The position numbers and the translations under genes were made by a program. A DNA stretch of 64,000 nucleotides from the human T2T-CHM13v2.0 reference genome, Homo sapiens, in the NCBI RefSeq assembly GCF_009914755.1, contig NC_060925.1; one strand, written 5' to 3'. Below the pieces are notes generated by a model. The model was not told where the DNA came from. It saw only the letters and a list, made by a program, of their open reading frames with translations, and ran no database searches. Numbering within the stretch: position 1 is the stretch's first letter; each line of letters begins with the position of its first letter. This document shows, piece after piece, positions 1 through 42,333 of this stretch.

Positions 1-1110
1 GATTTTGAAATGCACAGTACACTATTATTAAATATATTCACCATGCTGTGCAATGCATCTCAAAAAAAAAAACCAACAACAACACACAAATCTTACTCCT
101 CCCATCTGAGGCTTTGCACCCTTTGACCATCATTCCATTTCCCCCACCCATAGCCTTTAGTAAACACCATTCTACTCTCTTCTTTTATGAATTCCACTGT
201 TTGAGATACTACATGTAATTGAGAACATGTGATATTTGTCTTTCTGTGCCTTGCTGTGCCTAGCTTATTTTATTTAGCATGTCTTCCAGTTGCATCCATA
301 TTGACACAAATGACAGAATGAATTTCTTTTTTAAAGCTGAATAGTATTTTATTGTGTACATATACTACATTTTATTTGTCCATTCATCTGTTGATAGACA
401 CATAGTGTCCACAATTGTCCATAAGTGAATAGTGCTAAAAGGAACATGGAAGTGCAGACATCTCTGACATACTTATTTCAGATCTTTTGGGTAAATACCC
501 AGAAGTGAGATTGTTGGATCATGTGGTAATTCTATTTTTAGTTTTTTGAGGAACCTCCATACAGTTTTCCAAAAGGGCAGTATGAAATTATATTCCAAAC
601 AACAGTGTTCAACTGTCCTTCTTTCTCCAAATCCTTGCCACATGTACTTTCATCATTTTGATAATAACTATTCTGACAGGTGTGAGGTGATGACTCACTG
701 TGATTTTAACTTGAATTTCCCTAGTGATTAGTGATATTGAGCATTTTTTTCATATATCTGTTGGCCATTTGTATGTCTCCTTTTGAGACATATCTACTTT
801 TTATTGGATTGTTTGTTTTCTTTCTGTAAAGGTATTTGAGTTGCTTATAAATTATCCCCTTATCAGATGTATAGCTTGCAAAATATTTTCTCCAAATTCA
901 TAGGTTGTCCCTTCAGTCTGTGAATTGTTTCCTTTGGTTTGCAGAAGATTTTTAGTTTGATGTAATCCTATTCATCTCATTTTGCTTTTGTTGCTTGTGT
1001 TTTCAGGGTCATATCCAAGAAATCATTTTTTAGGCCAACATCATGGAGCTTTGCCCCTGTCTTCTTCTAGAAGTTTTACAGTTTTCAGTCTTCATTTTTA
1101 AATTTTTAAT
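1..1110 (-). mobile_element. Old L1 (L1MA/MB-type) 3' UTR and ORF2 end, fragment
   Basis: Antisense L1 3' motifs (tccattcatctgttgatagacac, tttttgaggaacctccatac, tttgcagaagatttttagtttgatg); highly diverged. Confidence 0.75.
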
Positions 1111-1595: not shown

Positions 1596-4500
1596 TTTTT
1601 ACTTTTAAGTTCAGGGGAACATGTGCAGAATGTGCAGGTTTGTTACATAGGTAAACATGTGTCAAAGGAGTTTGTTATATGGATTATTTCATCAGCCAGG
1701 TATTAATCCATTAGTTATTTTTCCTCTCTCCCTCATCCCACTCTCCACCCTCCAGTAGGCCCCAGTGTGTGTTGTTCCCCTCTATGTGTCCATGTGCTCT
1801 CATCATTTAGCTCCTGCTTATAAGTGAGAACATGTGGTATTTGGTTTTCTATTCCTGCATTAATTTGCTAAGGACAATGGCCTCCAGCTTCATCCATGTC
1901 CCTGCACAGAACATGATCTCATTCTTTTTATGGCTGCATAATATTCCATAGTGTATACATACCATATTTTCTTTATCTAGTCTATCATTGATGGGCATTT
2001 AGGTTGATTCCATGTCTTTACTATTGTGAGCAGTGCTGCAATGGATATATGTATGCATGTGTCTTTATAATAGAATGATTTATATTCCTTTGCGCATATA
2101 CCCAGTAATGGCATTGCTGGGTCAAATGGTAGTTTCATCTTTAGGTCTTTGAGGAATCGCCACGCTGTCTTCTACAATGGCTGAACTAATTTACACTCTC
2201 ATCAACAGTGTATAAGTGTTCCTTTTTCTCCACAACCTCACCAGCATCGGTTATTTTTTGACTCTTTAGTAATAGCCATCCTGACTGGTGTTAGATGGTA
2301 GCTCATTGTGGTTTTGATTTGCATTTCTCTAATGATCAGTGATGTTGAGCTTTTTTTTCATGTGATTGTCGGCTGCATGTAGTGACTGTTGATGTCCTTT
2401 ACCCACTTTTTTATTGAGTTGTTTGATTTTTCTTGTAAATTTGTTTACATTCCTTATAGATGCTGGATATTAGATCTCTGTTAGATGACTAGTTTGCAAA
2501 AATTTTCTCCCATTCTCTGGGCTGTTTACTCTGTTGATAGTCTCTTTTGCTGTGCAGAAGCTCTTTAGTTTAATTAGATTCCATTTGTCAATTTTTGCTT
2601 TTATTGCAATTGCTTTTGGCATCTTCATCATGAAATCTTTGCCCATGCCTATGTCCTGAATGGTATTGCCTAGGTCATCTTCCAGGGCTTTTATAGTTTG
2701 GGGTTTTACATTTAAGTCTTTAATTCATCTTGAGAAAATTTTTGTATATGGTATAAGGAAGGGGTTCAATTTCAATCTTCAGCATATGGCTAGCCAGTTA
2801 TCCCAGCATCATTTATTGAATAGGGATTCCTTTCCCCATTGCTTGTCTTTGTCAGGTTTGTTGAAGATCTGATAGTTGTAGGTGTGTGGTCCTATTTCTG
2901 GGCTTTCTGTTCTGTTCCCTTGGTCTATGTGCCTTTTCTTGTACCAGTACCTTGCTGTTTTGGTTAGTGTAGCCCTGTAGTGTAGTATGAAGATGGGTAG
3001 TGTGATGCCTCCAGCTTTGTTCTCTTTGAGTTGGATTGTCTTGGCTATTTGGGTTCTTTTTCTGGTTTCACTTGAATCTTTAAATAGTTTTCTCTAGTTC
3101 TGTGAAGAATGTCAATGGTAGTTTAATGGAAATAGCATTGAATCTAAAATTGCTTTGGGCAGTATAGCCATTTTCACAATACTGATTCTTCCTATCCATG
3201 AGCATGGAATGTTTCTCCATTTGTTTGTATCCTCTCTGATTTCCCTGAGCAGTGGTTTGTAGTTCTCCTTGTAGAGATCTTTTACCTCCCTAGTTAACTG
3301 TATTCCTAGGTATTTTATTCCTTTTGTGGCAATTGTGAATGGTAGTTCATTTATGATTTGGCTATCAGCTTGATTGTTGTTGGTGTATAGGAATGCTAGT
3401 TATTTTTGCACGTTGATTTTCTATTCTGAGACTTTGCTGAAATTATCAGCTTAAGAAGCTTTTGGGCCAAGACAGTGGAGTTTTCTAAATATAGGATCAT
3501 GCCATCTGCAAACAGGGATACTTTGACTTCATATGTGGATGCCCTTTATTTTTTTCTCTTGCTCAGTTGCCCTGGTCAGAACTTGCAATACTGTGTTGAA
3601 TAGGAGTGGTGAAAGAGTACATCCTTTTCTTCTGCCAGTTTTTAAGGGGAATGCTTCCTGCTTTTGCCCATTCAGTATAATGTTGGCTGCGGGTTTGTCA
3701 GAGATGGCTCTTATTATTTTGAGATATGTTCCTTCAATACCTAATTTATTGAGAGTTTTTAACATGAAGGATGTTGAATCGCATTAAAGGCATTTTCTGC
3801 ATCTCTTAGATAATCCTGTGGTTTTTGTCTTTAGTTCTGTTTATGTGATGAGTCACATGTATTGATTTGTGTATATTGAACCAACTTTGCATCTTGGGGA
3901 TGAAGCCTACTTGATCATGGTGGATAAGCCTTTTCAGCCCAGTGCTGCTGGATTCAGTTTCCTGGTATTTTGTTGAGGACTTTTGCACTGGTGTTCATCA
4001 AGGATACTGGCCTGAAGTTTCCTTTTTTGGTTGTATCTCTGCCAGGTTTTGGTATCAGGATGATGCTGGCCTCATAGAATGACTTAGGGAGGAGTCCTTC
4101 ATTTTTAAGTTTTTGGATTAGTTTCAGCAGGAATGGTACCAGCCCTTCTTTGTTCATCTGGTAGAATTCAACTGTGAATCCATCTGGTCCTGGGGTTTTT
4201 TTGGATGATAGACTTAATTACTGCCTCAATTTTAGAACTCATTTTTGGTCTGTTCAGGGATTCAATTTCTTCCTGGTTTAATCTTGGGAGGGTGTGTGTA
4301 TCCAGGAATGTATCCATTTCTTCTAGATTTTCTAGCTTATGTCTGTAGAGGTATTCATAATGTTTTCTGATAGTTGTTTGTATTTCTGTGGGGTCAGTGA
4401 TAGTATCTCACTTGTTATTTCTGATTGCATTTATTTGAATACTCTCCCTTTTCTACTTTATTCGTCTAGCTAGCAGTGTCTCTTTTATTAATTTTTTTCA

Positions 4501-28500: not shown

Positions 28501-30065
28501 ATGCTACCAATGACATTCTTCACAGAATTAGAAAAATGTTTTAAAATTCATATGGAACCAAAAAAGAGCCCAAATAGCCAAGTCAATACTAAGCAAAAGA
28601 ACAAAGCTGGAGGCATTACATCACCTAACTTCAAACTATACTTCAAGGCTACAGTAACCAAAACAGCATGGTACTGGTACAAAAGCAGACACATAGAACA
28701 GTGGAACAGAATAGAGAGCCCAGAAATAAAGCCGCATACCTACGACCATCTGATCTTTGACAAAGTTGACAAAAACAAGGCATAGGGGAAGAATTTTATA
28801 TTCTATGGAATAACTGGAATAACTGGCTAGCCATATGCAGAAGATTGAAACTGGAACCCTTCCTTTCAACATATACAAAAATCAACTAAGCATGGATTAA
28901 AGACTTAACTGTAAAACCTAAACCTGTAAAAACCCTGGAAAATAACCTAGGAAATACCATTCTAGGGGCCAAGGCAAAGATTTCATAACAAAGTCACCAA
29001 AAGCAATTGTAATGTAAACAAAAATTGACAAATGGGACCTAATTAAACTAGAAAGCTTCTGCACAGCAAAAAAAAAAAAAAAAAAAAAACAACAAAACAA
29101 ACAAACAAAAAAACGCTATCAACAGAGTAAACAGACAACCTATAGCATGGGAGAAAATTTTTGCAAACTATGCGTCTGATGAAGGTATAATATCCAGAAT
29201 CTATAAGGAACTTAAACACATTTACAGGCAAAAAAAAAAAAAAAAAACAACCCCATTAAAAAGTGGGTAAAGGACACAAACAGACACTTTTCAAAAGAAG
29301 ACATACACATGGCCAACAAGCATATGAAAAATTTCTCATCACTAATCATGAGAGAAATACAAATCAAAACCACAATAAGATACCACCTCACACCAGTCAG
29401 AATGTCCATTATTAAAAGGTCAAAAAATAACAGATGCCAGTGAGGTTGCAGAGAAAAGGGAATACTTATACATTGCTGCTGGGGATGTAAATTAGTGTGG
29501 TGATTTCTCAAAGTACCTAAAACAGAACTACCATTCAACCTAGCAATCCCATTATTGAGTATATACCCAAAGGAATATAAAATTGTTCTATCATAAAGAC
29601 ACATGCACGCTTATGTTCATCACAGCACTATTCACAATAGCAAAGACGTGGAATTAACCTAAATGCCCATCAACAGTAGACTGGATAAAGAAAATGTGGT
29701 ACATATACCCCAAGGGATATATGCAGCCATAAAAGAAGAATGAGATCATGTTCTTTGTAGCATCTTGGATGGAGATGGAGGTCATTTTCCTAAGCAAACT
29801 AAGACAGGAACAGTAAACCAAATATTGCATGTTCTCACTCATAAATGGGAGCTAAACATTGAGTACACATGGACACGAAGAATGGAACAACAGACACCGG
29901 GGCGTACTTGAAGGTGGAGGGTGGGAGAAGGGTGAGGATAAAAAAGCTACCTATTGTGTGCTATGTTATTACCTGGGTAACAAAATAATCTGTATACCAA
30001 ATCCCTGTGACACGCAATTTACTTGTATAACCTGCACATGTACTCCTGAACCTAAAAGTTATACA
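25521..30065 (+). mobile_element. 5'-truncated older primate L1 (L1PA13-16/PB-like), ORF1 end to 3' UTR
   Basis: ORF2 fragments 26571-26870, 27796-28314 and 28390-28785; 3' end gaacctaaaagtt. Confidence 0.85.
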
Positions 30066-35296: not shown

Positions 35297-36308
35297 GTAA
35301 AACTATAGCAATTCTAAAGCAGTGAATCATTTAACAAAAGTAAAGTAAAAGTGATATAATGTAATCTACTGCAGAAGCTAATTCCAGTGCAGATTTTCTT
35401 TATTCTAGCTGCCAACAATTTTTTAAACTCTCACTACCTATAGAGTTAATAAAAATATTGTCAAAAGGAAAAGTGTATGGACTAATCTAAATGACCATTG
35501 GTAAATTATCAAACTTTTGAGTGCCCAGGTTCCCTTACCTTTTATTTTTTAAAAGAGATATCCTATCTTTTTTTTTTAATATAAGAAATGACTTCTTTCA
35601 GGAGGTTAATACTTTTTTAAAATATTGTTAGTTTTTAATTTTTGTAGATAGATAGTAGATGTATATATTTATGGGGTACATGATATATTTTAAAGCAGGC
35701 ATACAATATAAAATAATCACATCAAGGTAAACGTATCCGTAGCCTCAAGCACTTATCCTTTGTGTTAAAAATAATCCAATGATAATCTTTTAGTTATTTT
35801 TAAATGTAAAATTAAATTATTGTTAGGTATGGTCACCCCATTCAGCTATCAAATACTAGACCTTATTCATTCTGTTTTTTGTACCCATCAACCACTTTTT
35901 CTCTCTCCCCCATTCTCTCCACTACTCCTCCTATCCTCTGGTTATTATCCTTCTACTGTCTATCTCCATGATTTCACTTGCTTCAAATGTTACCTCCCAC
36001 AAATAAATGAGAACATATGAACTTTGTGTTTTTGTGCCTGGTTTTTTTTACTTAACATAATGACCTGCAGTTCTATCCATGTTCTTGCAGATGACAAGAT
36101 CTCATTCTCTTTTATGGCCGAATAGTACTCCATTTTGTATATATACCACATTTTCTTTATCCATTCATCTGTTTACAGACACTTGGGTTGCTTCCAAATT
36201 TTGGTTATTGTGAATAGTGCTTCAATAAACACAGAGTGCAGATATGTCTTCAGTATACTGATTTCCTTTCTTTTGGGTATATACCTAACAGTGGAATTGC
36301 TGAATCTT

Positions 36309-41786
<5,478 letters not shown>

Positions 41787-41859
41787 CTTTAGTTTTTATG
41801 AACATGTGACTGAAACTGAGTTCCTTTTACCTAACATCTGGCTTTCAACAAAAACTTAT

Positions 41860-42075
41860 TGATATGGCTCCGATGAGTGGAGGAACACCAGGGTTCTTTG
41901 TCCTCATGCCGGCTTAGACAAAACGACATGGACATACATGGAGTGTTTTTAAGGAACCCAGAGTTTAGTAGGCAAGATAGAAGTGGGAAGAAAAAAGGAA
42001 GAAGCTCCCCTGTACGGAGACAGAGGCAGGGGCTCTCCAAAGCACAGGACAGGAACCCCACCTGCCATGGATACC
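41860..42075 (-). mobile_element. ERV1-type LTR 3' fragment (MER61-like) inside the L1 TSDs
   Basis: tgatatggctccgatgagtggaggaacaccaggg...gagtttagtaggcaag is an LTR terminus (CA on the - strand); family name is from memory. Confidence 0.6.
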
Positions 42076-42333
42076 GGAATTGCTGAATCTTATGGTAGCT
42101 CTATTTTTAGTTTTTTGAGGAACTTCCAAACTGTTCTCCATAGTGGTTGTACTAATTTACATTCCCACAAACAGTGTACAAGGGTTCCCTTTTCTCCATA
42201 TCCTTGCCAACATTTGTTATTGCCTGTCTTTTGGAAAAAAGCCATTTTAACTGAAGTGAGATGATATCTCATTGTCACTTTGATTTGCATTTCCCTGATG
42301 ATCAGTGATAATAAACACTTTTTCATATACCTG

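What the first reader, a model, noticed from the sequence alone, without database searches (positions are those of the whole stretch)
41761..42091. L1 whose promoter is replaced by an ERV LTR plus unique DNA inside its TSD: candidate LTR-driven, spliced chimeric retrotransposon
Seen: a perfect 16-bp TSD (36293-36308 / 42076-42091) encloses the L1PA4-like element plus about 290 bp of non-L1 DNA at its 5' end. On the element strand this is the 3' ~216 bp of an LTR, ending in its CA terminus at 41860, then ~73 bp of unique flank, then L1. The LTR is cut exactly at the TSD and has no second end or TSD of its own. The junction reads ...aactaaagCAG|tacgcagctggag. It coincides with L1 5' UTR ...ggttctcccAG|cacgcagctggag (pyrimidine run plus AG), and the foreign part ends in CAG like an exon before a donor. 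Established: L1 5' UTR splice acceptors produce spliced retrocopies (SpIREs), 5' transduction from upstream promoters occurs, and SVA_F1 arose by exon capture. Inference: a solo-LTR promoter elsewhere in the genome drove an RNA that spliced into an L1, bypassing the native YY1/CpG promoter, and this chimera retrotransposed. It may represent a small undescribed LTR-L1 family.
Basis: partly seen in the sequence, partly recalled or inferred. Interest (0 to 1): 0.82.

Follow-up and report, generated by a model that had tools for sequence, protein, structure and literature searches.

The report
Spliced LTR transcript fused to L1
An old, decayed L1 copy in a DNAH14 intron carries at its front the first two spliced exons of a chromosome-4 transcript that begins in a retroviral LTR; it is a single dead-end example of a kind of chimeric L1 insertion already in print.

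Summary
A perfect 16-bp target-site duplication (36293-36308 / 42076-42091) encloses a minus-strand L1PA4-like element plus a 292-nt non-L1 leader.

The leader has a source on chr4 of the same genome. Its first 260 nt are the last 216 nt of a ~623-bp LTR plus 44 nt of flank, ending at CAG|GTAAAC. Its last 32 nt lie 140 kb downstream on the same strand, directly after ttttcttttaag|. The leader is therefore a copy of a spliced, LTR-initiated RNA.

- The carried LTR piece lies downstream of the promoter motifs, so no promoter was transferred.
- No sibling copy exists in this genome.
- No same-strand full-length L1 lies within 200 kb downstream of the chr4 exon.

The L1 joint follows GGTTCTCCCAG (about L1.3 nt 649), 27 nt past the published 622 acceptor. 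The chr4 exon is not followed by GT today, and 5 nt at the joint fit both partners. Splicing (about 50%) and reverse-transcriptase template switching (about 40%) cannot be separated here.

The class is published (Cell Genomics 2026: 17 exon-L1 chimeras). This locus is not among them. It is a new member of a known kind.

The parts
36293..36308 (.). Target-site duplication, the copy next to the poly(A) end (GGAATTGCTGAATCTT). The inferred first-strand nick on the + strand is TCTT/AT.
36309..36318 (-). Short poly(A) tail of the element, seen as a T run on the + strand.
36319..41783 (-). L1PA4-like body running from about L1.3 nt 649 of the 5' UTR to the 3' end. The reading frames are decayed: the longest ATG ORF on the element strand is 186 aa.
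   Evidence: It is 93-95% identical to its best relatives. It carries the ~125-nt 5' UTR segment that the chr4 neighbour L057 lacks.
41782..41786 (-). Joint zone CAGTA. These 5 nt fit both the chr4 exon (CATTA today) and L1 (CAGCA in most copies, CAGTA in about 7%).
41784..41815 (-). Leader nt 261-292, a copy of a 32-nt chr4 exon piece (C4:139463437-139463468, minus strand) with 3 differences.
   Evidence: In chr4 the piece is preceded by ttttcttttaag|.
41816..41859 (-). Leader nt 217-260, a copy of the 44 nt of unique chr4 DNA that follow the LTR, ending at the donor CAG|GTAAAC.
41860..42075 (-). Leader nt 1-216, a copy of the 3' 216 nt (R-U5-like part) of the chr4 LTR (C4:139603687-139604309), ending in CA.
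42076..42091 (.). Target-site duplication, the copy at the 5' end of the element.

Best explanation
**One event.** About 19 million years ago a single L1 target-primed reverse transcription event inserted a chimeric copy into an older L1 inside a DNAH14 intron.

**The 5' part.** It copies a non-coding RNA from chr4. That RNA began inside an ERV LTR, just 3' of the LTR's TATA-like, octamer and CCAAT motifs. It was then spliced from a donor 44 nt beyond the LTR to an acceptor 140 kb downstream.

**The 3' part.** It is L1PA4 RNA from about nt 649 to the poly(A) tail.

**The joint.** The joint between the second exon and L1 is most likely spliceosomal. It would use a cryptic L1 5' UTR acceptor (GGTTCTCCCAG|), either in trans or from an intronic L1 allele since lost. 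I put this at about 50%. Template switching by the L1 reverse transcriptase is nearly as likely.

**Consequence.** The copy carried neither the LTR promoter region nor L1 nt 1-648. It left no progeny and has decayed.

**Shown:** one event, the source locus, and removal of the first intron. **Inferred:** the start site, the read-through, the age and the mechanism of the joint. The confidence given is for the core claim of a one-off chimeric retrocopy of a spliced LTR transcript plus L1.
For: **One insertion event**
- A perfect 16-bp duplication encloses everything.
- The flanks are colinear on paralogous old L1 copies.
- There is a poly(A) end with a TCTT/AT nick site.
- No poly(A) lies between the leader and the L1.

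**Source locus**
- The chr4 hit is 93% identical over leader nt 3-260.
- The LTR there is complete, at rc-L002 coordinates 1092-1714.
- The match ends at CAG|GTAAAC.
- The remaining 32 nt match once elsewhere in the genome, with 3 mismatches and 0 control hits. That place is 140 kb downstream on the same strand, directly after ttttcttttaag|.

**Age.** 23 differences in 292 nt with no gaps, JC distance 0.083.

**Where the leader starts.** It starts 8-15 nt 3' of an ATATAC-type motif kept in 11 of the 14 family copies that could be aligned there, out of 18 examined.

**Poly(A) hexamer.** ATTAAA is present in 14 of 18 copies. Both chr4 and the leader read ACTAAA.

**L1 side of the joint**
- The L1 joint sits directly after an AG preceded by 8 of 10 pyrimidines.
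- Only 23 of 520 AG sites in a 6,114-nt composite L1 are that strong.

**Published precedent.** 17 exon-L1 chimeras are in print, many without a source L1 in the gene.
Against: **Joint**
- chr4 has no GT after the 32-nt exon piece (AAAGCAT|TAAGAA). No register of the joint gives both GT and AG with the sequences as they are now.
- A GT donor (AATG|GTTAGT) lies 10 nt further on in chr4. The exon may therefore have been longer than the part that was copied.
- The first L1 base is T. Here 10 of 10 fetched relatives read C. Of the 39 best non-self hits, 38 do not reach query base 1.
- No other L1 with the exact 22-mer has foreign DNA at this point. There is 1 non-canonical copy against 2,492 canonical ones, and that one is a 12-nt internal deletion.

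**Start site.** The leader starts closer to the TATA-like motif than the usual ~30 nt. The exact start site is not established.

**Source L1.** None was found.
Confidence: 0.85

Rival explanations
1. The exon 2-L1 joint was made by template switching. During target-primed reverse transcription the L1 reverse transcriptase left the L1 RNA near nt 649 and carried on along an already spliced chr4 LTR transcript inside its second exon, guided by 1-5 nt of microhomology (CAGTA).
For: - Five nt at the joint fit both partners with one mismatch each.
- This reading needs only one later substitution, whereas every splicing register needs more.
- chr4 has no GT at the end of the copied exon piece but has a usable donor 10 nt further on.
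- No source L1 lies near the chr4 exons.
- The acceptor has no other user among about 2,700 L1 copies carrying the exact motif.
- The published table lists chimeras of undetermined joint type.
Against: - The L1 breakpoint falls exactly after one of the 23 most pyrimidine-rich AG sites out of 520 in 6.1 kb. Chance would give this about 0.4-1% of the time.
- The chr4 side (TTAAGA) is one base away from a GTAAGA donor core.
- From recall: known switches such as U6/L1 land on the 3' end of the second RNA, not inside an exon.
Confidence: 0.4
2. An L1PA4 that still lies downstream of the LTR on the same strand was transcribed from the LTR promoter and spliced in cis. The chimera then founded a small LTR-L1 family.
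For: - The LTR start, the GT after the flank and the AG-preceded L1 joint are present.
- One published case (RAP1GDS1) has a source L1 in the intron and two daughter copies.
Against: - No full-length minus-strand L1 lies in C4:139263001-139463000.
- In the part of the list that was shown, which covers chr4, no T-variant minus-strand L1 with the exact motif lies between 120.08 and 139.46 Mb.
- The only nearby same-strand L1 lies upstream of the LTR, lacks the ~125-nt segment and is 93.9% identical.
- There are no sibling copies.
- The carried LTR part lacks the promoter motifs.
Confidence: 0.05
3. Two unrelated events. An LTR fragment or processed pseudogene already lay at the site, or arrived later, next to a 5'-truncated L1.
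For: None beyond the fact that 5'-truncated L1s are common.
Against: - The duplication flanks the composite exactly.
- The empty site is continuous on paralogues.
- The leader has no poly(A) tail and no duplication of its own.
- The LTR piece is cut at the duplication.
Confidence: 0.01

Closest known systems
5' chimeric L1 insertions carrying mRNA or lncRNA exons (Cell Genomics 2026, PMC13174262; preprint 10.1101/2025.02.02.635956). I read the passages, preprint section 24 and the whole of Table S5.
   Same: - The first exons of a transcript, in sense, sit in front of a near full-length L1 inside one target-site duplication.
- The introns have been removed.
- A long intron or desert follows the last exon.
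- Usually no source L1 is found at the gene.
- Some joints lie at L1 5' UTR acceptors.
   Different: - This locus is not among the 17 rows. The two chr1 rows are at 68.68 and 121.3 Mb.
- The first exon here is mostly an ERV LTR.
- The L1 joint is 27 nt 3' of the 622 acceptor.
- No GT survives at the last exon.
SpIREs, spliced integrated retrotransposed elements (Larson 2018, PMC5860796; passages read).
   Same: Both are retrotransposed L1 RNAs that lost promoter sequence through use of an acceptor in the 5' UTR, and both are expected to be poor at further rounds.
   Different: - SpIREs use the L1's own donor G98U99 and keep nt 1-97.
- Their acceptors are A620G621, A788G789, A851G852 and A974G975.
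- This element has no L1 nt 1-648, and its joint follows A647G648.
SVA_F1 / MAST2 exon capture and other spliced 5' transductions of SVA (recalled; no paper read here).
   Same: An upstream exon is spliced onto a retrotransposon RNA and carried along.
   Different: SVA_F1 acquired a CpG-island promoter exon and spread as a subfamily. This element carries no promoter and has no progeny.
U6/L1 and other template-switch chimeras (mentioned; otherwise recalled).
   Same: A foreign RNA copy sits in front of a 5'-truncated L1 within one target-site duplication. This is a possible mechanism for the exon 2-L1 joint.
   Different: From recall, U6 chimeras join at the 3' end of a small RNA. Here the partner is a spliced Pol II transcript joined 32-35 nt into its second exon.

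Membership tests
L1 target-primed reverse transcription insertion | Target-site duplication flanking the whole insert. | tested here: met
   16 of 16 bp identical. Both copies map to one point on paralogous old L1s.
L1 target-primed reverse transcription insertion | Poly(A) tail at the 3' end and a T-rich endonuclease nick site. | tested here: met
   A 10-nt A run abuts the duplication. The inferred nick is TCTT/AT, against the recalled consensus TTTT/AA.
Exon-L1 5' chimera (Cell Genomics 2026 class) | The leader maps, in sense, to the first exons of a transcript elsewhere, with the intron removed. | tested here: met
   Pieces of 260 nt and 32 nt on chr4, on the same strand, 140,174 bp apart, with GT..AG at the edges. 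No annotation of a chr4 transcript could be consulted.
Exon-L1 5' chimera, splice-joined subtype | The last foreign exon ends exactly at a GT donor in the source locus. | tested here: not met
   chr4 reads AAAGCAT|TAAGAA, and the next GT donor is 10 nt further on. The ancestral state is not known.
Exon-L1 5' chimera, splice-joined subtype | The L1 part begins directly after an acceptor AG. | tested here: inconclusive
   - GGTTCTCCCAG precedes the joint in 10 of 10 relatives, and the site is among the 23 best of 520 AG sites.
- The register is ambiguous over 5 nt.
- The site is not among the published acceptors seen. The Belancio 2006 and 2008 papers could not be read.
SpIRE | Internal deletion between L1 donor G98U99 and an L1 acceptor, with L1 nt 1-97 kept. 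| tested here: not met
   No L1 sequence lies 5' of about nt 649. The leader is chr4 DNA.
Classical (unspliced) 5' transduction | The transduced DNA is contiguous with the 5' end of a source L1 in the genome. | tested here: not met
   - The leader comes from two chr4 places 140 kb apart.
- No L1 abuts either place.
- No L1 lies within 200 kb downstream.
   The 76-nt unique leader part and the 32-mer (up to 3 mismatches allowed) find only this locus and the chr4 source. Only one human genome was searched.
Solo LTR / provirus insertion | Both LTR ends (TG..CA) with a short duplication of its own. | tested here: not met
   Only the last 216 of ~623 nt are present, cut at the L1 duplication. The chr4 copy is complete. 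The LTR family name was not determined because no repeat library was at hand.

The most novel reading that the evidence does not exclude
The joint marks an L1 5' UTR splice acceptor (AG at L1.3 nt 647-648) that none of the papers I could read reports. It was used once to splice an LTR-initiated non-coding RNA onto L1 RNA, in trans or from an L1 allele since lost. This would show that LTR-driven transcripts, and not only gene mRNAs, can feed exons into retrotransposing L1 RNA.
Probability: 0.4. Interest if true: 0.4.

Novelty: new member of a known kind. Interest (0 to 1): 0.3.

Why it matters
The locus gives a fully traceable example of exon-L1 chimera formation: source LTR, both exons, a 140-kb intron, and the insertion site. 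The leader is itself mostly a repeat. My guess, not tested, is that screens aimed at non-repetitive 5' sequence may overlook cases like this, so such chimeras may be under-counted. The locus also offers one clean case on which to test trans-splicing against template switching, through the ancestral state of a single chr4 splice-site position. It has no evident effect on DNAH14: it is intronic, antisense and decayed.

Tried and rejected
- **Published 622 acceptor.** I first recalled the joint as the 622 acceptor. The SpIRE sequences in Table S5 (...CATCTGAG|CTTTGAAGAG) and the numbering check show it lies 27 nt further 3'. Rejected.
- **Cap-derived G residues.** I first read the leader's initial GG as untemplated. 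In fact 12 of 14 family copies that could be aligned there have GG at that place, while chr4 now has CA. The GG was probably templated. Rejected.
- **Source L1, 200 kb scan.** The 200 kb downstream of exon 2 holds only fragments and plus-strand pieces.
- **Source L1, upstream neighbour.** The same-strand L1 17.5 kb upstream of the LTR lacks the ~125-nt segment and is no closer than other copies. Rejected as the source.
- **Source L1, genome-wide.** The best genome-wide relatives of the L1 5' part are 93-95% identical, and none is near the chr4 exons. These were 39 non-self hits, with 40 of 4,378 candidates scored.
- **Recurrent use of the acceptor.** None was found.
- **Is the first-base T inherited?**
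  - 211 copies have a non-C base there, and 86 of the 100 listed have T.
  - Only 1 of the 39 best hits reaches base 1.
  - Undecided.
- **An L1 inserted directly at the chr4 exon end.** Rejected, because a duplication copy would then lie between exon and L1.
- **Unavailable sources.**
  - The Belancio 2006 and 2008 papers are not held.
  - Two literature searches for LTR-started L1 chimeras gave nothing beyond the papers cited.

Full report
**1. What is in the window**

GGAATTGCTGAATCTT occurs at 36293-36308 and again at 42076-42091. The DNA outside the two copies is one older plus-strand L1 3' region. On two paralogous old-L1 copies in the same window (1820-2343 and 324-761) the left and right flanks align colinearly. 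Both copies of the 16-mer fall on the same point. The 16-mer is therefore a true target-site duplication of a continuous empty site.

Between the copies, on the minus strand, lie three things:
- a 10-nt poly(A) at 36309-36318;
- an L1 body at 36319-41783;
- 292 nt of non-L1 DNA at 41784-42075.

The plus-strand nick inferred from the poly(A) end is TCTT/AT, close to the recalled TTTT/AA preference. The L1 reading frames are broken: the longest ATG ORF on the element strand is 186 aa.

**2. The leader has a source on chromosome 4**

A search of the window's own genome with the 5' 315 nt of the element gave one outstanding non-self hit: C4:139603643-139603900, minus strand, 93% identical over leader nt 3-260. 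All other listed hits (79-85%) stop at about nt 216, with a few running to nt 229. The first look found 374 candidates, of which 40 were scored.

On chr4 the LTR is complete. It aligns to 18 family copies over rc-L002 coordinates 1092-1714, about 623 bp, which is C4:139603687-139604309. The leader begins 407 nt into it.

After the LTR, chr4 and the leader share 44 more nt. The match stops at ...GGAACTCAG|GTAAACAGG, a GT donor.

The remaining 32 nt of the leader were searched as a pattern with up to 3 mismatches. They occur at only one other place in the genome: C4:139463437-139463468. The reversed-pattern control gave 0 hits. This place is on the same strand as the LTR and 140,174 bp downstream of the donor. 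There the 32 nt are directly preceded by tgttttcttttaag|.

The leader is therefore a copy of an RNA from which a 140-kb GT..AG intron had been removed.

**3. Age**

Leader and source differ at 23 of 292 positions with no gaps. Seven of the differences are of CpG type. The JC distance is 0.083. At a recalled neutral rate of 2.2e-9 per site per year this is about 19 million years. That fits an L1PA4-like element.

Three observations bear on the subfamily:
- The L1 part is 93-95% identical to its best relatives.
- It has GCAGCTGGAG, like the L1PA2 sequences in the published table, rather than the ACAGAGTTTGAG of the L1PA5 examples.
- It keeps the ~125-nt 5' UTR segment that a neighbouring chr4 L1 lacks.

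The subfamily name itself was not tested, because no repeat library was available.

**4. Where the RNA began, and why it left the LTR**

In chr4 the leader's first base lies:
- 8-15 nt 3' of TACATATA;
- 39-46 nt 3' of ATGCAAAT;
- 59-63 nt 3' of CCAAT.

An ATATAC-type motif is kept in 11 of the 14 family copies that could be aligned there. Eighteen copies were examined, and four of them are truncated. This places the 5' end in the promoter-proximal zone of the LTR. The spacing is shorter than the usual ~30 nt, so the exact start site is not established.

The leader's first two bases, GG, match 12 of 14 family copies, whereas chr4 now has CA. They were probably templated and are not cap-derived additions.

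At leader nt 107-112, 14 of 18 family copies read ATTAAA. Both the chr4 LTR and the leader read ACTAAA. The difference therefore predates the retrotransposition. I infer that a poor poly(A) hexamer let transcripts run out of the LTR to the flanking donor.

The 407 nt of the LTR that hold the promoter motifs were not copied. The element did not acquire an LTR promoter. It also lacks L1 nt 1-648, which is most of the 5' UTR that holds the L1's internal promoter.

**5. The exon 2-L1 joint**

The window reads ...CTAAAGCAG|TACGCAGCTGGAG. In 10 of 10 related copies where the motif was found (12 fetched), L1 reads GTGGTTCTCCCAG|CA(C/T)GCAGCTGGAG.

*Numbering.* Against a full-length relative the first L1 base is 650, which is 649 in L1.3 terms. 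The published acceptor A620G621 precedes CTTTGAAGAG, 27 nt upstream. This is not the 622 site, and it is not among the acceptors listed by Larson et al. (620/621, 788/789, 851/852, 974/975).

*For splicing.* The AG is preceded by 8 pyrimidines in 10. Only 23 of 520 AG sites in a 6,114-nt composite L1 are that strong. A random breakpoint would land there about 0.4% of the time.

*Against splicing.*
- chr4 reads AAAGCAT|TAAGAATG|GTTAGT. There is no GT at the end of the copied piece, while a usable donor lies 10 nt further on.
- The five bases CAGTA fit chr4 (CATTA) and L1 (CAGCA) with one mismatch each. No register gives GT and AG together.
- A splice at this AG needs a deletion, or two changes, in chr4 since the event. 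It also needs a T at the first L1 base.

*The T at the first L1 base.*
- It is found in roughly 7% of copies: 211 non-C copies, of which 86 of the 100 listed have T, against 2,492 with C.
- Only 1 of the 39 best-matching copies reaches that base.

*Other users of the site.* No other L1 with the exact 22-mer has foreign DNA at this point. The single non-canonical case is a 12-nt internal deletion.

*My weighting.*
- Spliceosomal joint: about 50%.
- Template switching guided by microhomology: about 40%.
- Something else: the remainder.

**6. No source L1 and no family**

- The 200 kb downstream of exon 2 (C4:139263001-139463000) hold no full-length minus-strand L1. A further 200 kb could not be fetched.
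- In the part of the list that was shown, which includes chr4, no minus-strand T-variant L1 with the exact motif lies between 120.08 and 139.46 Mb.
- A same-strand full-length L1 17.5 kb upstream of the LTR lacks the ~125-nt segment and is 93.9% identical. It is not the source.
- The unique 76 nt of the leader find only this locus and chr4. The 32-mer finds the same two places.

In this one genome the chimera is therefore a single copy.

**7. Comparison with what is known**

The class is in print. 'Comparative genomics reveals LINE-1 recombination with diverse RNAs' (Cell Genomics 2026, PMC13174262; preprint 10.1101/2025.02.02.635956) reports the following. I read passages, preprint section 24 and the whole of Table S5.
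- 17 hg38 insertions have mRNA or lncRNA exons in front of L1.
- Six end exactly at donors, and some join at the 622 acceptor.
- 15 of the source genes hold no intronic L1.
- The authors favour trans-splicing.

None of the 17 rows is this locus.

SpIREs (Larson 2018, PMC5860796; passages read) share the loss of promoter sequence through a 5' UTR acceptor. They use the L1's own donor at nt 97, which this element lacks. SVA_F1 exon capture and U6/L1 chimeras are recalled parallels.

**8. Verdict**

It is wrong or unsupported on promoter replacement, on a family, and on an L1 source in cis that is still present. The locus is a new member of a known kind, and interest is modest.

What remains open is how the exon 2-L1 joint was made. 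One outgroup alignment of the chr4 exon end would largely settle it.

Noticed in passing
window 324-761, 1820-2343 and 29316-29860: Three further fragments of old L1 3' regions, 73-75% identical to the L1 that hosts the insertion.
   Followed up: partly
L057 (C4:139615400-139622300, minus strand): A full-length L1 lies 17.5 kb upstream of the source LTR on the same strand. It lacks the ~125-nt 5' UTR segment and reads G at the position where the window's element has T.
   Followed up: yes
genome-wide pattern counts: At about L1.3 nt 649, 211 copies with the exact flanking motif carry a non-C base, and 86 of the 100 listed have T. Copies with C number 2,492. The T excess over A and G suggests a shared sub-lineage variant rather than independent mutation.
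   Followed up: partly
C7:32221440-32221468: One L1 copy has a 12-nt internal deletion (TGGTTCTCCCAG) between two CAG repeats, directly at the site of interest.
   Followed up: no
L003-L020 versus L002: The LTR family keeps an octamer-like ATGCAAAT, an ATATAC motif and an ATTAAA hexamer in most copies. Four of the 18 fetched copies are truncated and lack the upstream part.
   Followed up: partly
L022 (C4:139463400-139463440 region, minus strand): The chr4 second exon has a possible GT donor (AATG|GTTAGT) 10 nt beyond the part copied into the window. The present-day exon could therefore be 42 nt long.
   Followed up: no
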